From: Microcoleaceae cyanobacterium
Lineage (GTDB): Bacteria; Cyanobacteriota; Cyanobacteriia; Cyanobacteriales; Microcoleaceae
Reading direction: 5' to 3'
NCBI GenBank assembly: GCA_051652765.1
Contig: JBOFUV010000156.1
Span: 1 to 15,573, forward strand
DNA length: 15,573 nt
The notes under the pieces are model-generated. The model saw only the letters and a program-made list of their open reading frames with translations. It was not told the origin of the DNA and ran no database searches. The first letter of the stretch is position 1, and each line of letters starts with the position of its first letter. Positions 1 to 15,573 of the stretch are shown here, in pieces. A program made the translations under genes and the position numbers.

Positions 1-2943
1 GCCGATGACGACAACCACACGGGCAAGAGTAGGCAGACTATTTTCAGAGGCTTCGATATAAATAGGCTCTACATATAGCAAAGATCTTTCAATCGGAATT
101 ACCAGCAAATTTCCTTGAACTGCTCTTGAACCTTGGCGATTCCAAAGGGAGATCTGTTCTGAGATTTCGGGGTTTTGATTAATCAAAGCTTCAACTTGTT
201 CTGGCCCAAAGACCAACCGTTGTTTAGGAAAGCGATAAAGTAGAAGTTTTCCATACTGTTCTTCATCAGAACGGGCGGCTAGCCAGGAAATCAAATTAAT
301 CCGACTCGCTGGAGTAAAGGGCTGCAAAATGATAAATTCTTCCTCTTTTTCTCCTGGAAGTCCTGTGATTAGATAATAGGGCTCAACAGGTTGTTGTTCT
401 CCAGCATAAATTTCTCGTGGAATCCGCCATTGATCCTCCCGGTTGTAAAACACCTTGAGATCTTCCATGTGATAAACCAACAATCGATCAGACTGTAGCT
501 TCAACAGATCAACAGGATAGCGAATATGAGCTTTTAGGGAGGGAGGCATTTCCTGAATCGGCTTGAACAACTCTGGGAAAACTTTACGCCAACTGGTGAG
601 AATTGGATCGACTTCAGGGGTGTCTAAATAATAGAATTTAACCAAGCCATTGTAGGCATCAACCACAACTTTAACGGAATTACGAATGTAGTTTAACCCT
701 GTATTTCCGGGATCGGAATAGGGATAGCGATCGCTCGTAGTATACGCATCCAAAATCCAGTAAAGATAGGTATTCTGTTGGCTAGAGTCTGATTCATCTC
801 CTGCTAGATTTGCTTTTGCAGAGACCAAATAAGGGTTCCCATCGTAATGTAAAAATGGGGCGATCGCTTTCACCCGTTCAACAATATTGCGTCGAAATAA
901 TAGCTTGGTCTCAGGAGAAAAATTACGAGTGAAAATCATTTGCCAATTTCTCAGGCGATTGGCAAACAGATATCGTTTCCATCCTTGACCAATGACAATT
1001 CCCCCTGTACCGTCATAAACGTTATAAACATTTTCATTTCCAAAGGGATAATCTAGCTCCTGAACAGTCGTAGAAGTCATCACATTGGTATTCGTCAACT
1101 CTCCATAGTAGATCCTAGGTTTGCCAATGGGAATACTGTCTTGAACTCTAGGAGAAACTTGTAAAACGCTAGCAGGGTCCAGTCTCGGATCAGGCCCAAT
1201 TTCGCTGATAAAATATTCTGGAAGTCCACCTGCTCCAACGGTGTTGACGGGAGACAGGGTAAAGCCATAACCATGGGTATAAATTAAATGTTTATTAATC
1301 CAGGTTTGAGCTTCTGAGGGAACTGAAGTATAGTCCAACTCCCGTGCTGCAATCAATACCTGTTGCCTTTCAGTACTGCTGTTGGAGGGTTGCTGTTGAG
1401 GAAATTTGAGCAAGGTGTAGCGATCAATATCTGCATCAAAAAATGCGTAATAGGGGCGAATTTGCTGTAATTGTTTATTCGTCTGCAACAGCGGGCGCAC
1501 ATCCCACAATCGAATGTTCCGAACGGTTAAATCATTATTCTGAATATCTGCATAGGTCAGTTCTGCCTCCGGATCAAAAGTTCGAATCTCAATCTGATCC
1601 AGACCAAATGCCGCGCGGGTGAACTTGATATTCTGCTTAATATAAGGCGTTTCCCGTTCTAGTTCGTTCGGTTGAACAACAAGACCTTGAACCAATGCGG
1701 GCAATAGCCAAACGGCAATCAAGAATAATGCTAGATACGATCCTAAGATGACTCTCAAAGAATAGCTATTGGCAAACAGTCGGGGAGCAGATGGAACATC
1801 AGGACGTTTCTGGCGTAGCCCAATCTGATGTAGTCCAATTTGTAGTCCAAAGACTTTCAGGCTTGAATCAACATAGGGCTGAATGACTTTAATCTGAAAA
1901 AAAGCTTGCCAGAACAGAAAAATTGCGATCGCGATCGCAATCAAACAAAGCACTCGATAGGCAGGAGCCTGAATCATAATATCGGTGTATCCCGCCCCAA
2001 ACACTACTCCTCTGGGGGAATACAACAACTTGTAGCGATCAATCCACAGGGCGAGAGCAATGCTTAACATCACCCCTCCCCCAAGCCCGTGCAAATGGCG
2101 TTGCTGAAGCTGAGAAAAACCTGGAAATTTGCCCTGACTGAAGCTATTGCCTGAGACGAGGTACCGCAGGCAACAACAAAGAAACCCCACTAGAGTCAAA
2201 CTGAGTAGCCAAAATTCCAGCAGATAGCCAATGGGCAAGCTGAAAATATAGAAGCCAATATCAAGTTTAAATAAATCTTCTGTTTGGTTAAATGCTACTG
2301 GATTTAAAAATTGCAACACATTTCCCCAGTGTGTCGATAAAACCAGACTAAACCCCAAACTCAGGAACAGGACGATCGCCCAACAGGCCAATTCAGACTG
2401 AGTTAAGAAACAAAAGATTATTCCTCCTAACGTAACAAGTTGCCAACTTCGAACAGGGTAGAACCCTTGCTGTAACTCTTCTATTCCTGACCGATCTGGC
2501 AGCAGAGGCACAACCAAAGATTGACTCATATCCGGATGCCAGTAGGTCAAAAAGACTTGGCCACAGGACATCAAGATCATGCCCAGCACTACCGCCAATC
2601 CCAAAACAAAAATCAAAAACCAACCAAACCGGAGAGCTGGGGTCGGGAGTGACGGCAATGGAGAGAAATAAGGAGTGTTCGGCTTGACCTCAGGATCGGG
2701 TTGTAGGGGATATTGATACCGATTGGCTAGACTGAGATTTAGGGCTAAAAAAACCGCCGTAACACTGAAGCCCACCAAGCCCAAGATCACTTGGGTAACA
2801 AACCGCTTTAGAAAGACAGAAAGATAGCCAACCTCTTGGAACCACAGGGTTTCTGTGATCAGATAGGTTGCCAGGTTAAGGAGTAACCCTAGGGCAAATA
2901 ATAAAATGAGACTGATCTGAGCAACTCGTTTTTGAACAGCCAT
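1..2943 (-). CDS. UPF0182 family membrane protein (3' end beyond window)
   Basis: ATG at 2943 gives MAVQKRVAQISLILLFALGLLLNLATYLITETLWFQEVGYLSVF; the same frame at the left edge reads LLVIPIERSLLYVEPIYIEASENSLPTLARVVVVIG; internal YTHGYG and DAYTTSDRYPYSDP motifs are typical of UPF0182. Probably absent from the ORF track because its stop is outside the window; not every codon was checked. Confidence 0.92.
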   Translation of the reverse strand, partial: MAVQKRVAQISLILLFALGLLLNLATYLITETLWFQEVGYLSVFLKRFVTQVILGLVGFSVTAVFLALNLSLANRYQYPLQPDPEVKPNTPYFSPLPSLPTPALRFGWFLIFVLGLAVVLGMILMSCGQVFLTYWHPDMSQSLVVPLLPDRSGIEELQQGFYPVRSWQLVTLGGIIFCFLTQSELACWAIVLFLSLGFSLVLSTHWGNVLQFLNPVAFNQTEDLFKLDIGFYIFSLPIGYLLEFWLLSLTLVGFLCCCLRYLVSGNSFSQGKFPGFSQLQQRHLHGLGGGVMLSIALALWIDRYKLLYSPRGVVFGAGYTDIMIQAPAYRVLCLIAIAIAIFLFWQAFFQIKVIQPYVDSSLKVFGLQIGLHQIGLRQKRPDVPSAPRLFANSYSLRVILGSYLALFLIAVWLLPALVQGLVVQPNELERETPYIKQNIKFTRAAFGLDQIEIRTFDPEAELTYADIQNNDLTVRNIRLWDVRPLLQTNKQLQQIRPYYAFFDADIDRYTLLKFPQQQPSNSSTERQQVLIAARELDYTSVPSEAQTWINKHLIYTHGYGFTLSPVNTVGAGGLPEYFISEIGPDPRLDPASVLQVSPRVQDSIPIGKPRIYYGELTNTNVMTSTTVQELDYPFGNENVYNVYDGTGGIVIGQGWKRYLFANRLRNWQMIFTRNFSPETKLLFRRNIVERVKAIAPFLHYDGNPYLVSAKANLAGDESDSSQQNTYLYWILDAYTTSDRYPYSDPGNTGLNYIRNSVKVVVDAYNGLVKFYYLDTPEVDPILTSWRKVFPELFKPIQEMPPSLKAHIRYPVDLLKLQSDRLLVYHMEDLKVFYNREDQWRIPREIYAGEQQPVEPYYLITGLPGEKEEEFIILQPFTPASRINLISWLAARSDEEQYGKLLLYRFPKQRLVFGPEQVEALINQNPEISEQISLWNRQGSRAVQGNLLVIPIERSLLYVEPIYIEASENSLPTLARVVVVIG

Positions 2944-3066
2944 TAAACCCAATAAGAACATTCCAGGTAGAGTTGCTCCTAATTTTAGTTGATTCCCACT
3001 TCCTGCTAACAACACGCTATCCTAGATTGAATTATTGAGTAGATGATCTTCAGTCTCAAACGCTTT

Positions 3067-8642: not shown

Positions 8643-8731
8643 AGCTAATACCGCCATTCACCCGCCGCCAGAAACCTCTCGGACTGAACCAACCAACTAG
8701 ATGCGGTCGGTGTGCAACGAGATTGTTGTGC
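8643..8731 (-). repeat. attC-like site (R' degenerate)
   Basis: + strand: AGCTAAT-accgcc-ATTCACCCGCCGC ... GCGG[T]CGG[T]GTG[C]AAC-gagatt-GTTGTGC; 89 bp; 20 nt after the beta-lactamase stop. Confidence 0.72.
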
Positions 8732-8751: not shown

Positions 8752-9621
8752 TTATAACAATCTCAGATCCTTCAAACAACGGCGTGTGACCTCCATTCGA
8801 GCAGAAGCATCTTTCTCGTTAAGAATCTCGATATTGGTGGCGAAAAAGTAAACATCTTTTCCTTTCTCTAAGTACCCAACTAACCATCCAATTTGGGGTT
8901 TTACGCCATCGTCAAATCCAACCCAGCCTGTTTTCCCTCGTATGGTATAGTCTGGAGTTTTCTCTAGAACCATGATGTCTTTTACAATCGAGAGAGATCG
9001 CGCTTGAAAGGGTAAATCATTCTTGTAAAAACGGCGGAGAAACTGAATTTGCTGTTCAGGCGTGATTCGCAACTCTCCTCGTAACCAGAATTTGTCAATA
9101 TCTGCTTGACTCCCAATTTTTTGGTTGCCATATCCAACTTGCGTCACCCATTTTTGCATCCGGTTGTGCCCTACTCGACGAGCTAAAACCTGATAAAACC
9201 AATAGGCAGAGAGCTTGATTGCTTCTCTCATGTTCAGATCTCGATTCCATGCAGGCAGCTTTCTTTGAATGCCGTCCCACGTTAGAACCGCAATTTCATC
9301 TGAAATGACTCCCGTTTCCAGTGCAATGAGAGAATTCAGAATTTTGAAGGTAGAAGCAGGTAAAAAAGCAGTTGTGTTTCGAGATGGATTATGTTGAAAA
9401 ACGCGATCGCTGTTCGAGTCGTAAATTAGAATGGAACCCTCAATCCCTAGTTCTCGAAAGTGCGGCGCAAAATCGATGTTCTGTGCAACCTCTACACGAG
9501 TCGCGGATTCAATCGGCGAATTTGGCATTGTTGCGACTGATTGCACGGTCTGAACCAGGGCAGTGGCACTGCAACACAGCGCAACGAAAAAGATAATGAC
9601 AAAGCGAAACCTTTGATTCAT
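8752..9621 (-). CDS. blaOXA: Class D beta-lactamase (OXA-like) with signal peptide
   Basis: PASTFK (SxxK), SAYW at the SxV position, YGN, FWL, KTG, GWLVG motifs; hydrophobic N-terminal leader. Confidence 0.9.
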   Translation of the reverse strand: MNQRFRFVIIFFVALCCSATALVQTVQSVATMPNSPIESATRVEVAQNIDFAPHFRELGIEGSILIYDSNSDRVFQHNPSRNTTAFLPASTFKILNSLIALETGVISDEIAVLTWDGIQRKLPAWNRDLNMREAIKLSAYWFYQVLARRVGHNRMQKWVTQVGYGNQKIGSQADIDKFWLRGELRITPEQQIQFLRRFYKNDLPFQARSLSIVKDIMVLEKTPDYTIRGKTGWVGFDDGVKPQIGWLVGYLEKGKDVYFFATNIEILNEKDASARMEVTRRCLKDLRLL

Positions 9622-9699
9622 CGGCTTCTACCAACTAGCAATAGGATGAGCAGCCTTACTAAAGTTTTGATGCCGTCCGCTGCACCAGGGTTGTTATGC
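9604..9699 (-). repeat. attC-like site overlapping the HNH 3' end and blaOXA start
   Basis: Right arm is clear: GCCG[T]CCGCTG[C]ACC-agggtt-GTTATGC. Putative left arm GCGAAAC-ctttg-ATTCATCGG at 9604-9624 is less certain. Confidence 0.62.
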
Positions 9700-10160
9700 T
9701 GCCAGATCAACCGGTTAATGTGTGGATCATTAGTAGGCGGATGCCAACCACCGCGAATCCAGAGACGACGGGCACGCTGAATAGAGCCATCATCATGCCA
9801 ATCGTCATTCATATCTAAGCGTTGAATCGTGGCACGTCCGATCGGAGCGATACCTATAATTCTTTGTCCATCGGCAGACCAGATAAAATGCTCTGACCAT
9901 TGATTTTGTCTGGGGTTGAAAAGCGGAAAATTCTCCTGGGTATCAGGATCGATGCCATCTGTAAAGTTGTAGCGGTGACCATTGCAGCGATGGCAGGCAA
10001 GGGCAAGGTTATCTTCGGCATCTGTACCACCTAGGGACTGAGGTATCAGGTGGTCAAAGGTGAAAAGAGATGCACTGGCTTCTTCCGAGGAATGACAATA
10101 CTCGCACAAGAAATTAGCGCGTTGACGAATGCATTGACGGCTGGCAATGCTGATGGTCAT
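9618..10160 (-). CDS. HNH endonuclease
   Basis: RANFLCEYC, DHLIPQSLGG, NLALACHRCN, LFNPR, HFIWS, GRATI..L.MN; C-terminal tail reads through the attC. Confidence 0.9.
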   Translation of the reverse strand: MTISIASRQCIRQRANFLCEYCHSSEEASASLFTFDHLIPQSLGGTDAEDNLALACHRCNGHRYNFTDGIDPDTQENFPLFNPRQNQWSEHFIWSADGQRIIGIAPIGRATIQRLDMNDDWHDDGSIQRARRLWIRGGWHPPTNDPHINRLIWQHNNPGAADGIKTLVRLLILLLVGRSR

Positions 10161-10396
10161 GACTCGGCAATAATGCGGGCATTCATCAAAGTAAAGATGC
10201 GGTCAAGTTCAGTAATACCAGCCAACTCAGCGGTTTCTTCTGAAGTGAGAAGGTTGACTTTTTGGCGCTCAATCAGAATTTCAAGGCGCAGTTGGAGTTG
10301 ATCGTTAAACTTAAAAAGATTAAGACCGCGCATCTTTTGGATTTTAATACCTTCTTCAATCCACGATGAAGGTTGTACCATTGTTTGAGTAATCAT
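10157..10396 (-). CDS. Small antitoxin-like partner of the HNH nuclease
   Basis: 79 aa, LQLRLEILIERQK..LLTSEETAELAGITEL pattern; GGAGAG RBS; ATGA overlap with the HNH start. Confidence 0.7.
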   Translation of the reverse strand: MITQTMVQPSSWIEEGIKIQKMRGLNLFKFNDQLQLRLEILIERQKVNLLTSEETAELAGITELDRIFTLMNARIIAES

Positions 10397-10828: not shown

Positions 10829-10915
10829 GTATAACGTTCCTGTTTAGCGGCGGTAGATAACCTTGAACTCTCGCCGATAACTTCTGTTCCATCCGCTCCA
10901 ATCGGGTTGTTAGGC
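10829..10915 (-). repeat. attC-like site
   Basis: GTATAAC-gttcct-GTTTAGCGGCGG ... CCATCCGCTC[C]AAT-cgggtt-GTTAGGC; 87 bp; 6 nt after the hydrolase stop. Confidence 0.82.
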
Positions 10916-10921
10916 TGTTTC

Positions 10922-11770
10922 TCACGGTGATACAGTTTGCTTCTCTATCGCTTCAAAAATAACAGACCAGTCGCCGCGATGCAATTCGTGTCCTGTTCCA
11001 GGCAATGATAGTAATATAGACTCCTGGATTTTCGCTTTCAATACCAAGCTATGGGCATAGGGTAAAACACGATCCTCTGTGCCATGAATAATCAGAGTTG
11101 GAACGGCGATTTCGTGGAGGTGGTTGAACCATTGTTCTCCACCTTGAAGCGAGGCATGATTAAAGGTCGTCATGAAATTGGGCGTTCGATCAAAGTCAGC
11201 CCCAGCTAATTCGCGGATCGCTGATTCATCAAACAGATGGGCTGAACCAGACATCAATCGCCATGCACCAATCTGATAGTCAATCACTGCCTCACGGTTT
11301 GCCCAATCCAGTTCACTAGCTTTCGCATGATACTCAAGGACAGATGAATCGATCCCTGGTATTGTTGGATCGCCTTCAGCCAAAGGTTCTGAGGCAATTA
11401 ACGTTAGACTTTTAACTCGCTGAGGATACTTGAGCGCCATGAGTTGAGCTAAGAATCCTCCCAGCGACATCCCTACTAAATGAGCGCTCTGAAGACCATA
11501 GCTATCAAGAACACAAAAAGCATCATCCGCTAGATCTTCAACGGAATAGTGAGTGTGACCTAGCTCGTAACTGGTTGAGCGCCCCGTGTCTCGGTGATCA
11601 TAGCGAATCACATAGCGTCCTAGAGCAGCCAACTGACAGCAGAAATCTTCCGCCCACCACACGGCTGAAGACATCGCTCCCATAATCAATAAAATTGGTT
11701 GATCGCTTGGATTACCGAAAGATTCGGAAAAAAGACGAACCTCATTATGGTTAATCCATTTACTTTCCAT
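10922..11770 (-). CDS. estX: Alpha/beta hydrolase, EstX/EstT (macrolide esterase)/RdmC-like
   Basis: [38 protein letters not shown] nucleophile elbow, HGTED, GTGHELH; closely matches my recollection of the EstX cassette protein. ATG 11770 preferred because the longer ORF starts inside an attC. Confidence 0.85.
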
Positions 11771-11807
11771 ATCTTTTCGCATCTCGGCTTTCTTACATTC
11801 TATCAAC

Positions 11808-11899
11808 CTCGATTCCTGCATTTCACCATCATCAAAGATCAAATCATTTGGTCTTCTACAATAGCCATGCTTCGCACCGGTGCAGCGCGGTTGTTATGC
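11808..11899 (-). repeat. attC-like site (R' lost)
   Basis: Right arm CCGGTG[C]AGC-gcggtt-GTTATGC; left L' TTTCACC at 11821-11827; central hairpin aagatcaaa/tttggtctt; R' position reads CTCGATT. Confidence 0.68.
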
Positions 11900-11907
11900 G
11901 GCGATCG

Positions 11908-12312
11908 CTAGGTCATTGAAATTACTGGGTAATTATAACTTTCCTTAACGACTAAACCATCTTTCCAATAACCGATCGAAAGTTGATTGCTTTTATTATC
12001 AATGATCTGTTCAGCATATCTAATGGTGAAATCGTTGTACCAATTGGAAACTACAACAAAGTCATAACTGTGATCGGCTGAGACTGCAATATCTTGACTA
12101 ATCAATCTAGACTCTCTAAACTCGACCAACATTTCGTCGAAAAAGACAGCTCTTCCTTGGCGGCAGGCTTCTTTCCCTGTGGTGACCGTACCGTCGCCTT
12201 CAATCATCACAGTATCCTCAGAATAGTATTTTTCCAAGGCTACCGATGTTTGAAACGTAACAACTAAATTGTTAATGTCTGCCAACGCGGCTTGTAATTC
12301 TTCAATCGTCAT
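11908..12312 (-). CDS. SnoaL-like / NTF2 superfamily protein
   Basis: ALEKYYSEDTVMIE...TTGKEACR and C-terminal YWKDGLVVKESYNY pattern; ATG 12312. Confidence 0.75.
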   Translation of the reverse strand: MTIEELQAALADINNLVVTFQTSVALEKYYSEDTVMIEGDGTVTTGKEACRQGRAVFFDEMLVEFRESRLISQDIAVSADHSYDFVVVSNWYNDFTIRYAEQIIDNKSNQLSIGYWKDGLVVKESYNYPVISMT

Positions 12313-12417
12313 AAGCAAAATAATAAGGTTTTGAGAATTCAGAGAAAATTTTAGCTTACTGTTTTAATCACGTCCCACAAGTAATACTCTAATTGCGCCC
12401 TAGCTGTAATCGAAGCT

Positions 12418-12504
12418 GCATAACGGTGCGGTTCACCAGACGCAAAAGAACTATGTATACCACTGACAATTTAGATTCGTTCTGGTGCAGTGGGCTTGTT
12501 AGCT
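12418..12504 (-). repeat. attC site (best preserved)
   Basis: GCATAAC-ggtgcg-GTTCACCAGACG ... CGT[T]CTGGTG[C]AGT-gggctt-GTTAGCT; 87 bp; two extrahelical bases. Confidence 0.9.
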
Positions 12505-12532: not shown

Positions 12533-13107
12533 TTATGAATTCAATGTCTTTTCAATGCGGCGATCAGGAACGAGCCACATGACTGCAACCAGAACATACA
12601 ATGCACATGCAAGCCAAGAGGTTGCAAAAGCAAGTGGAATTGCAACTGCATAAATCAATACCGAAACTTTCCTTTAAGATCCCGACCGAGAGCGTTTGCA
12701 AGTGTGGAATCTTGGCCGTGGTGAAAAATAAGTGTGCGGGTTAGAGTGAAATAGGCGATCGCAGCCAACAATAGAACCGCACCATAAAGCGCAACAGGCA
12801 ACGCCGCAAAGTGATTTTCACCCATCCATGCGGTGGCAAAGGGAAATAATGATAACCAGAACAACAAATGTAAGTTTGCCCACAAAGTTGAACCATTCAC
12901 TTGTTGGACTACCTGAAACAGGTGATGGTGATTGTTCCAGTAGATACCAACATACACGAAACTCAACACGTAGCTTAGGAAGGTTGGAATCAGCGGAAGT
13001 AGCGCAGCTAGATCTGACTCATGAGGTATTTTCAACTCCAATACCATAATGGTGATAATAATAGCAATTACCCCATCACTGAATGCTTCTAACCTGCCTT
13101 TAACCAT
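12533..13107 (-). pseudogene. TMEM175 (DUF1211) potassium channel family gene with a 1-nt frameshift
   Basis: RLEAFSDGVIAIIITIMVLE and YWNNHHHLF motifs; ORF stops at GKFRY*, but the -1 frame from about 12668 continues VSVLIYAVAIPLAFATSWLACALYVLVAVMWLVPDRRIEKTLNS* (TAA 12535-12533). Confidence 0.85.
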
Positions 13108-14336: not shown

Positions 14337-14425
14337 TGCTAACAACCAAGCTCACCCGCTGCTGATAGCTTTGGGACTAATCCCCAATAGTACTATTGCA
14401 GGTCGGGTGCAGTGATTGGTTAGCT
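14337..14425 (-). repeat. attC site
   Basis: TGCTAAC-aaccaa-GCTCACCCGCTGCTGATAG ... CTATTGCAG[GT]CGGGTG[C]AGT-gattg-GTTAGCT; 89 bp; canonical 6/5 spacers. Confidence 0.9.
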
Positions 14426-14577: not shown

Positions 14578-15066
14578 CTAGAAATTAGTTTTCTTAGCAT
14601 ATTTTTGCATAAGCTCCTGCACGATCGCCGTGGAAGTACGAAAGTTAGTTTGCTGAAGTCGTTCAATTGCTACAGCAAAGTCAATCAAGTTTTCACTAGC
14701 AGCTCGATCCAAAATACCCAAAACGCCAGTGAGGCCAAGCCCACGACTAGCCGCTAGGCGACGGGCTGCAAGATCATCAAGTAGGATAAGATCAGCTTTC
14801 AAGCTTTCCGCAAGCAAAATGGCGGCGCATTCTCCCGCGTCTAACTTGAGCAAGTCTGAATCAGGTTGAGTTGAAGTTGATTGAATAGTAAGCCATGTAG
14901 GCGGCGATGCAATCCATTGCTGCACGACGAGTGGAGCTTTGGGTGAAGCAAGCTCATCCCGAACAGTTTCAGGAATGAGGATGCCTTCAAAAAGACGAGG
15001 TAGAAGATCTATTTGCTCAATAACAACCAGATAAGAGATGGGCGAGGTGTTGGAAACAACCAGCAT
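14578..15066 (-). CDS. DUF3368 PIN-domain protein (putative toxin)
   Basis: VVSNTSPI, IPETVRDEL, LDAGECAAILLA, LILLDDLAARRLA, GVLGIL. Confidence 0.9.
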   Translation of the reverse strand: MLVVSNTSPISYLVVIEQIDLLPRLFEGILIPETVRDELASPKAPLVVQQWIASPPTWLTIQSTSTQPDSDLLKLDAGECAAILLAESLKADLILLDDLAARRLAASRGLGLTGVLGILDRAASENLIDFAVAIERLQQTNFRTSTAIVQELMQKYAKKTNF

Positions 15067-15069
15067 ATA

Positions 15070-15333
15070 TCAGGGCAACAGTTTTTTTAGTGTGGCGCGA
15101 TCGCCCTCTAAATCGACTTCAGTGTAGGCTGGTTCAGCTTGTTCGTGCTCAAGGAAGGCGTAGGTGTCCCAACGAGAGGTGAAGCCCAACATTTGTCCAA
15201 CCTCACCTGAGCCAATTAAGCCTTTACGATAAGCTTCGACAGCAAGAGCCTCAAGGAATCGTCGGCTGAGAATTTCGGGACTATCTGCCAGTTGATTAGC
15301 AATGTGATCGGGAATCTCAAGAGTGATTTTCAT
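15070..15333 (-). CDS. UPF0175 family protein (putative antitoxin)
   Basis: ITLEIPD, LEALAVEAYRKGLIGSGEVGQMLG..SRW, YTEVDLEGD; 3 nt upstream of the PIN gene. Confidence 0.88.
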   Translation of the reverse strand: MKITLEIPDHIANQLADSPEILSRRFLEALAVEAYRKGLIGSGEVGQMLGFTSRWDTYAFLEHEQAEPAYTEVDLEGDRATLKKLLP

Positions 15334-15389
15334 ATCAAGAATCTTCCAAACAGTTGCTGTTAAAGCAATACCTCTAAATTTGTTTCTCT

Positions 15390-15572
15390 TTAATCAGGAA
15401 CATGAATGAGACGATTCTCGATCTCCTGACCACCAGAGGTGAAAATTTGTAAGCGAATGACCTCTGAATCACTGGGTCGCCAAGCAACTTGATATCGACG
15501 ACTGCTGTTTTCCCATGTATAAATCCGGCGTTCGTTAGTCCCAGAAAGGGTTGCTCCGCTCAAAGATATAGG
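15390..15572 (-). CDS. 3' end of a hypothetical protein (start beyond window)
   Basis: Open frame PISLSGATLSGTNERRIYTWENSSRRYQVAWRPSDSEVIRLQIFTSGGQEIENRLIHVPD*; resembles a cyanobacterial hypothetical family (recalled). Confidence 0.65.
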   Translation of the reverse strand, partial: PISLSGATLSGTNERRIYTWENSSRRYQVAWRPSDSEVIRLQIFTSGGQEIENRLIHVPD

Positions 15573-15573
15573 C

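What the first reader, a model, noticed from the sequence alone, without database searches (positions are those of the whole stretch)
10922..11770. EstX-like hydrolase cassette: possible environmental relative of a clinical class 1 integron cassette
Seen: hydrolase flanked by attC sites (10829-10915 and 11808-11899). Long stretches such as [73 protein letters not shown] and GTGHELH match EstX as I recall it. EstX travels in enterobacterial class 1 integrons and is related to the macrolide esterase EstT. Inference: the gene family is cassette-borne in two phyla, implying a shared cassette pool.
Basis: partly seen in the sequence, partly recalled or inferred. Interest (0 to 1): 0.75.

Follow-up and report, generated by a model that had tools for sequence, protein, structure and literature searches.

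The report
Cyanobacterial macrolide esterase integron cassette
A cyanobacterium carries a likely macrolide-antibiotic-cleaving enzyme gene as an integron gene cassette in a decaying capture array; it is a distant cousin, not the source, of the clinical estX cassette, and the same cassette occurs in several other cyanobacterial genera.

Summary
The gene is real (11770-10922, minus strand, 282 aa). It passes NCBIfam's 16-membered-macrolide esterase cut-off, keeps the Ser102-Asp233-His261 triad, and is 63% identical to EstX and 70-72% to three cyanobacterial enzymes already shown to inactivate tylosin (PMC12910000). It is a true cassette: the downstream attC is genuine but eroded. The upstream 'attC' is only a 23-bp left arm fused to the cassette leader. 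Seven of 12 close cyanobacterial relatives carry the same attC, mostly in unrelated contexts; the gene was found in 2 of 401 genomes of the phylum. The 'shared pool with estX' inference is not supported for this gene: EstX lies in a separate clade (100/100), joining the two cassette clades is rejected (AU p=0.026), the attC types differ (87 vs 71 bp), and 0 of 13 intermediate relatives had a downstream attC. Two independent captures are more likely. The array also holds a class D beta-lactamase cassette. No intact integrase was found in the assembly. The scan had already noted this genome's dispersed integrase-less attI sites; it had not noted this cassette. New member of a known family; the cassette context was not found in print.

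The parts
10922..11770 (-). Est-type alpha/beta-hydrolase macrolide esterase gene, 282 aa; triad S102-D233-H261, oxyanion-hole A32/L103
   Evidence: (NF052610 427.8 bits vs cut-off 420)
10829..10915 (-). attC of the esterase cassette (R'' GCCTAAC 10915-10909; R' GTTATAC 10835-10829, crossover inferred after G10835); L' box eroded
   Evidence: (57.5 bits)
11771..11876 (-). Cassette 5' leader, conserved among cyanobacterial copies; contains a sigma70-like site (GTGAAA-18-TG-TAGAAT, 11826-11797), a candidate internal promoter
   Evidence: leader alignment; boundary at 11876; 5 sites found vs 3.6 +/- 1.8 by chance, so not significant on its own
11877..11899 (-). Left arm only of the previous cassette's attC (R'' GCATAAC plus L''); its centre, right arm and the GTTAGGC core are missing
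   Evidence: (no hit); GCATAAC is the exact complement of the GTTATGC core at 12424-12418 that opens that cassette
11908..12318 (-). Upstream cassette ORF, 136 aa, no Pfam or NCBIfam match; now fused to the esterase cassette as one unit
12418..12504 (-). Nearest full-length attC upstream of the esterase
   Evidence: 31.3 bits; R-box pairing probability 0.09
14337..14425 (-). attC of the same array
   Evidence: z -3.56; 30.5 bits
13195..13266 (-). Degenerate attC after the DUF5996 gene
   Evidence: 18.6 bits
9658..9699 (-). Partial attC (left part) ahead of the beta-lactamase cassette
   Evidence: 18.3 bits, model positions 1-41
8752..9621 (-). Class D beta-lactamase-family gene in the same array (STFK and KTG present; Tyr at the S-x-V valine position)
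   Evidence: (NF012161 282 bits vs cut-off 250)
8653..8731 (-). Degenerate attC of the beta-lactamase cassette
   Evidence: 27.7 bits

Best explanation
The gene is an integron gene cassette of a cyanobacterial lineage of Est-type serine esterases, predicted to hydrolyse the lactone ring of 16-membered macrolides such as tylosin, and it likely became a cassette independently of clinical estX. Shown: family membership by profile, intact triad, a cyanobacterial-type attC shared with copies in at least six other genera, and separate clades for this gene and EstX. Inferred: an integron integrase once inserted it at a GTT site of this array; the integrase was later lost, the upstream attC lost its right half and its own attC eroded, so the cassette is now likely fixed in place. 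It is likely expressed from a promoter in its own conserved leader, which would explain why copies persist after attC loss. Mechanism by homology: Ser102 attacks the lactone carbonyl, His261/Asp233 activate it, and water releases the ring-opened, inactive drug.
For: NF052610 passed, 427.8 vs 420. 63.1% to EstX, about 46% to EstT. 70.4, 72.4 and 71.2% to OCA-1, OCB-1 and the Nodosilinea LEGE 07298 protein (OCA-1 and OCB-1 accessions match Table S1). 21 of 26 pocket/triad positions equal EstX, versus 19-21 for the assayed cyanobacterial enzymes. Downstream attC of 26-55 bits in 7 of 12 close relatives with DNA (L015, L016, L017, L019, L020, L023, L027); sequence diverges right after the GTT core. 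Flanks are shared only within the Nodosilinea-group trio and the Rivularia/Richelia pair, and none match the window's flanks. 22 of 48 proteins of the close clade end in ETA, the ending produced where the stop codon lies in the attC R'' box (inferred for rows without DNA). Patchy: 2 of 401 phylum genomes; no DNA match to the gene among 30 relatives including both congeners. Tree: window in a 99/96 close clade inside a 99/98 clade whose named members are cyanobacteria; EstX in a 100/100 clade; AU p=0.026 against joining them. attC 87 bp vs 71-72 bp for estX and a second enterobacterial est cassette; 0.51 identity to the estX attC vs 0.58-0.69 to cyanobacterial orthologues. GC 46.2% vs genome 46.1%. 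Integrase only as N-terminal fragments.
Against: Activity is untested and the NF052610 margin is only 8 bits. The assayed cyanobacterial enzymes raised the E. coli MIC for tylosin only, 2- to at least 4-fold. The attC scan is insensitive to eroded or foreign-type sites: the structural scan missed the window's own attC and those of L017, L023 and L027, so 'no attC' in intermediate relatives is weak; L010 (72%) has an attC ending about 150 bp upstream and may be a former cassette. A single ancient cassette origin with later attC replacement is therefore not excluded. The AU test is moderate and the groups were named after a first tree had been seen. The array runs off the contig end, so a linked integrase cannot be excluded locally. 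The promoter-like site is within chance expectation. Genome searches scored only the top 6-9 candidates per genome.
Confidence: 0.72

Rival explanations
1. Shared cross-phylum pool: one ancestral est cassette circulates among cyanobacteria and proteobacteria, and attC sites were swapped to host type along the way.
For: Both clades contain cassettes. A protein named from Synechococcus sp. ATX 2A4 and one from Desulfonatronum are 92% and 93% identical to an est that is first cassette of a class 1 integron in E. coli, so EstX-clade genes do appear under several phylum names. L010 follows an attC.
Against: The window gene is only 63% (protein) and 65% (DNA) identical to estX; separate clades and AU p=0.026; 0 of 13 relatives at 56-76% identity with downstream DNA, and 0 of 78 more distant or intermediate loci in all, showed a downstream attC. 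The Synechococcus record's DNA could not be fetched (0 of 280 genomes) and may be contamination of a non-axenic culture.
Confidence: 0.15
2. The enzyme is a broad-specificity esterase whose natural job is detoxifying some other lactone or ester in mats and soils; macrolide cleavage is a side activity or is absent in this subclade.
For: OCA-1 also hydrolyses p-nitrophenyl butyrate and gives small MIC shifts. The other cassettes of this genome encode generic enzymes (SDR, GNAT, dienelactone hydrolase, NmrA) and toxin-antitoxin or defence genes; none of 60 attC-adjacent ORFs passed a resistance-gene model at E<=1e-15. The paper's supplement speaks of five enzymes but reports three, so activity across the clade may not be uniform (inference).
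Against: The crystal-structure preprint finds the Est pocket distinct from nearest non-macrolide hydrolases, and the pocket residues are as conserved here as in the assayed enzymes. This rival concerns the natural role and is compatible with the cassette anatomy.
Confidence: 0.3
3. The gene is an ordinary chromosomal gene that happens to lie next to a stray attC.
For: The upstream attC is incomplete, and three Nodosilinea-group copies lack attC and are syntenic.
Against: Same attC 6-9 bp behind or overlapping the stop in 8 of 13 close-clade loci; complementary core sites (GTTAGGC start in L016 and in run X2; GCCTAAC R''); absence from congeners.
Confidence: 0.03

Closest known systems
Cyanobacterial macrolide esterases OCA-1, OCB-1, NOD-1 (PMC12910000; main-text parts 1-4 of 7 and the supplementary PDF read)
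   Same: Same cyanobacterial clade (99/98), 70-72% identity, same triad and S102. Table S1 lists as NOD-1's 100% match the Phormidium tenue FACHB-886 protein, which is 87% identical and sister to the window protein; the main-text organism and identity figures fit the 71% Nodosilinea protein instead.
   Different: That paper reports IS and Rpn genes nearby; its main text has 0 occurrences of 'attC', 'cassette' or 'integrase'. The window protein itself was not assayed.
EstX, class 1/2 integron cassette (PMC11214618, passages; PDB 11TV; bioRxiv 10.64898/2026.03.24.713787, passages)
   Same: 63% identity, colinear, same triad numbering S102-D233-H261, also a cassette with its own attC.
   Different: Fails the estX equivalog (425 vs 600); separate clade; 71-bp attC of another type; N192 is D here as in the cyanobacterial enzymes.
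EstT and Gram-positive MLEs (BRB, CBF, BCA; PMC12704417, passages)
   Same: Same Est-type family and triad.
   Different: About 46-49% identity; all family-specific cut-offs failed; spread by transposases/plasmids or vertically rather than as cassettes.
CALIN, cluster of attC sites lacking integron-integrase (PMC4889954, passages)
   Same: At least six attC hits in one orientation with no integrase on the contig.
   Different: That survey found known resistance genes in only 31 of 1933 CALIN cassettes; this array holds two resistance-family genes.
RdmC aclacinomycin methylesterase (PDB 1Q0R)
   Same: Nearest non-macrolide hydrolase of solved structure.
   Different: 140 bits versus 409 for EstX.

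Membership tests
Est-type (alpha/beta-fold) macrolide esterase | Curated profile cut-off NF052610 | tested here: met
   427.8 vs 420 bits, full length
Est-type (alpha/beta-fold) macrolide esterase | Ser102-Asp233-His261 triad, GxSxG, oxyanion hole A32/L103 | tested here: met
   positions from PMC11214618 and the bioRxiv preprint
Est-type (alpha/beta-fold) macrolide esterase | Hydrolysis of 16-membered macrolides | not testable with these tools
   Shown only for relatives at 63-72% identity
EstX proper | estX equivalog NF033124 cut-off | tested here: not met
   425.4 vs 600 bits
EstX proper | Nesting in the EstX clade | tested here: not met
EstX proper | estX-type 71-bp attC | tested here: not met
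   87-bp cyanobacterial type; 0.51 identity
Integron gene cassette | Single ORF followed closely by attC with R''/L''/L'/R' boxes | tested here: met
   attC begins 6 bp after the stop; 57.5 bits
Integron gene cassette | 5' core complementary to R'' | tested here: inconclusive
   Missing in the window (deleted at 11876/11877); present as GTTAGGC in L016 and run X2
Integron gene cassette | Found in unrelated contexts with breakpoints at GTT | tested here: met
Integron gene cassette | Recombinogenic bottom-strand hairpin | tested here: not met
   z -0.35; R-box pairing 0.12; met by orthologous attCs (0.89-0.97)
Integron gene cassette | Excision or integration by an IntI | not testable with these tools
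   Needs a recombination assay
Complete integron | Intact intI beside the array | tested here: not met
   No TIGR02249 match over cut-off; only N-terminal fragments; array is open at the contig end
CALIN | Two or more attC, no integrase nearby | tested here: met
   6 hits on the contig; caveat of contig end

The most novel reading that the evidence does not exclude
Est-type macrolide esterases are an old, repeatedly recruited cassette family, and cyanobacterial attC arrays are a standing reservoir of resistance cassettes (macrolide esterase plus class D beta-lactamase here) that exchange with proteobacterial integrons; the EstX-clade gene recorded from Synechococcus sp. ATX 2A4, 92% identical to an E. 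coli class 1 integron cassette product, would be a recent crossing between the phyla.
Probability: 0.15. Interest if true: 0.72.

Novelty: new member of a known kind. Interest (0 to 1): 0.4.

Why it matters
It supplies the mobility mechanism that the paper on cyanobacterial macrolide esterases lacked: one subclade is an integron cassette found in unrelated contexts across at least seven cyanobacterial lineages, and naturally intact versions of its attC exist. It also suggests that the same resistance family was packaged as a cassette at least twice, which bears on how cassettes arise, and it argues against cyanobacteria as the source of clinical estX, whose nearest named environmental relatives are gammaproteobacterial or desulfobacterial.

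Tried and rejected
Rfam scan of the window: 0 hits. Strict RYYYAAC...GTTRRRY regex missed the real attCs. My structural attC scan was noisy genome-wide (169 hits vs 80 and 87 in two shuffles), so an HMM from 21 stricter seeds was used; one seed (C112) is probably false. Three comparison folds (L011, L015, L016) were out of register and were redone. DNA context for environmental EstX-clade genes was not obtained: 401 genomes around the Mesorhizobium handle gave only three 44-46% relatives; the Synechococcus protein was not found in 5 and then 280 genomes; viral contigs gave none or only 43-49% relatives; a guessed leader pattern matched 0 of 185 loci. No RNA holder listed, so expression is open. 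Six of 80 metagenome loci (L036, L039, L040, L069, L083, L102) lacked downstream DNA and were dropped from attC counts. L021 and L023 (frameshifted) and duplicates were left out of the trees. No structure prediction was run because EstX is solved at 63% identity. Literature searches found no description of cyanobacterial est genes as cassettes; subscription papers are not covered, figures were not seen, and parts 5-7 of PMC12910000 were covered only by term search. PMC8352920 (passages) has a Cyanobacteria attC model but 0 mentions of estX in the main text; its supplements were not read.

Full report
The gene. The minus-strand ORF runs from ATG 11770 to TGA 10922, 282 aa. It scores 427.8 bits on NCBIfam NF052610 (alpha/beta-fold macrolide esterase, cut-off 420) and fails the narrower estX (425 vs 600), EstT (346 vs 450) and Gram-positive models. 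It is 63.1% identical to EstX on enterobacterial plasmids and about 46% to EstT. Among solved structures EstX scores 409 bits, EstT 269-278 and RdmC 140. The triad S102-D233-H261 established for EstX (PMC11214618, passages) is intact, and 21 of 26 pocket and triad positions equal EstX. The host is inferred to be a cyanobacterium from its closest named relatives and GCGATCGC repeats.

Already in print. PMC12910000 (main-text parts 1-4 of 7 and the supplementary PDF read) reports three cyanobacterial EstX-like enzymes that inactivate tylosin and some other 16-membered macrolides, with S102A abolishing activity in OCA-1. MIC shifts in E. coli were seen for tylosin only. The window protein is 70-72% identical to them. 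Table S1 lists for NOD-1 a Phormidium tenue FACHB-886 protein that is 87% identical and sister to ours, but the main-text figures fit a different, 71% protein, so I do not count the 87% relative as assayed. The main text never uses attC, cassette or integrase.

Cassette anatomy. An HMM built from 21 attC candidates on other contigs hits 10915-10830 at 57.5 bits and five more sites on this contig, all on the minus strand. The esterase attC is eroded: no better folding than shuffles and R-box pairing probability 0.12 versus 0.89-0.97 in four orthologous sites. The proposed upstream attC is not one. Only 11899-11877 is attC; its GCATAAC complements the GTTATGC that opens the preceding cassette at 12424-12418. 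The rest aligns with the leader that follows GTTAGGC in Fischerella. In run X2 a contig matches the window to 11876 and continues with an intact attC right arm; in run X8 a contig covers 11065-11876 and then departs. So a deletion at 11876/11877 removed the right half of the upstream attC, and the esterase cassette can no longer be cut out on its own by the canonical reaction (inference). The last 55 bp of the leader are conserved in nine aligned copies and hold a promoter-like site, which is within chance expectation and only a candidate.

Mobility within cyanobacteria. Of 12 other close-clade loci (82-88% identity) with DNA, 7 carry the same attC directly behind the gene at 26-55 bits, one has a weak hit (L012, 16 bits), one a left-arm remnant seen by eye (L009) and three none. 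Sequences diverge right after the GTT core. Flanks are shared only within L013/L014/L021 and L017/L023. 22 of 48 close-clade proteins end in ETA, as happens when the stop lies in the R'' box (inferred where DNA is lacking). The family passed its cut-off in 2 of 401 genomes of the phylum and 0 of 25 of the same family, and no DNA match to the gene appeared in 30 relatives including both congeners; these searches score only the top few candidates per genome. GC content matches the host, which fits long residence in cyanobacteria.

Relation to estX. In a 164-row quick tree and a 42-row careful tree the window protein lies in a close clade (99/96) inside a clade whose named members are cyanobacteria (99/98). 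EstX lies in a separate 100/100 clade with Moraxellaceae, Microbulbifer, Marinobacter, Natronospirillum and Desulfonatronum proteins, 74-85% identical to it. Forcing the two cassette-bearing clades together costs 30 log-likelihood units (AU p=0.026; groups chosen after the first tree). The estX attC is 71 bp and 0.51 identical to the window's 87-bp site; a second enterobacterial est cassette has a 72-bp attC like estX's. No downstream attC was detected in 13 relatives at 56-76% identity, or in 78 intermediate and distant loci in all; the scan recovered estX's attC but missed several eroded ones, so this is modest evidence. Two independent captures are the simplest reading. Against it stands one lead: a protein named from Synechococcus sp. 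ATX 2A4 in the EstX clade, 92% identical to the E. coli cassette product, whose DNA I could not retrieve.

The platform. No integron integrase passes its cut-off in this 99.97%-complete assembly; only N-terminal pieces were found. Among ten genomes behind the related loci, one had a match over the cut-off, with a stop inside, and one of two congeners has one. The genome holds 85 attC hits on 32 contigs and about 20 attI heads with intI stubs, which earlier notes of this scan also describe (I found them before that look-up). The array here is open at the contig end. Besides the esterase it carries a class D beta-lactamase-family gene that passes NF012161. None of 60 attC-adjacent ORFs elsewhere in the genome passed a resistance model (79 attC hits examined, 19 without a qualifying ORF), and PMC4889954 (passages) found resistance genes in 31 of 1933 CALIN cassettes. 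Two in one array is unusual but is a single case, and the beta-lactamase has an atypical active-site residue.

Verdict. A real, now probably immobilised cassette encoding a new member of the Est-type macrolide esterase family. The enzyme family in cyanobacteria is known; its cassette form was not found in the six paper searches run or in the scan's earlier notes. The proposed link to the clinical estX cassette is a distant cousinship, not a shared recent pool. Interest 0.4.

Noticed in passing
Genome G000, e.g. C17:34740, C22:47710, C34:147743, C52:125384, C64:22896, C82:11028, C97:2108, C116:2176 (loci L152-L185): About 20 dispersed integron heads: a conserved attI ending exactly at GTT, a promoter region and a short 5' stub of intI; 12 of 15 with a detectable stub break off near codon 20 into a shared flank followed by 22-bp tandem repeats. 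In 12 of 12 cases with an attC within 2.5 kb, the attI core matches the complement of that attC's R'' at 5-7 of 7 bases. 85 attC hits on 32 contigs. A congener has a long intI ORF and similar heads. Found here independently; the scan had already reported it.
   Followed up: partly
window 8752-9621 (-): Class D beta-lactamase cassette. The family is common in the order (46 of 151 genomes); attC or attC-like remnants behind it were seen by eye only in three of the closest relatives (L125, L126, L131; below the HMM threshold). The window copy alone of 33 loci has Tyr at the S-x-V valine position, which may alter or impair activity.
   Followed up: partly
P0125 (WP_255147502), P0126 (WP_031386253), P0123; L113:3001-3849: A second enterobacterial est cassette (85% to EstX) is first cassette of a class 1 integron in E. 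coli JML285; proteins named from Synechococcus sp. ATX 2A4 and Desulfonatronum are 92-93% identical to it. Their DNA context is unseen.
   Followed up: partly
L013, L014, L021 (5001-5846): Nodosilinea-group copies keep the cassette leader but have a terminator-like hairpin in place of attC and share both flanks: a cassette apparently domesticated as a chromosomal gene; L021 is frameshifted.
   Followed up: partly
PMC12910000 Table S1 versus main text: NOD-1's identity is inconsistent: main text fits the Nodosilinea LEGE 07298 protein, Table S1 fits the Phormidium tenue FACHB-886 protein; the supplement mentions five enzymes.
   Followed up: yes
window 12545-13107 (-): TMEM175-family gene whose frame ends at 12655 while relatives match on to about 12550 and contigs in two runs carry one more base at 12664: likely a frameshifted cassette gene.
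   Followed up: partly
window 9618-10396 and 14578-15333 (-): Two-gene cassettes: small ORF plus HNH nuclease, and UPF0175 plus DUF3368 (PIN-type) pair; likely toxin-antitoxin modules that would stabilise the array (inference).
   Followed up: no
window 15254-15573: The contig end is 95% identical to the end of contig C31, a duplicated stretch that probably broke the assembly and hides the head of the array.
   Followed up: partly
window 1-3000: No ORF of 60 aa or more was listed between 1 and 2392 under default settings, and short 15-bp direct repeats lie at 1583-1842; not examined.
   Followed up: no
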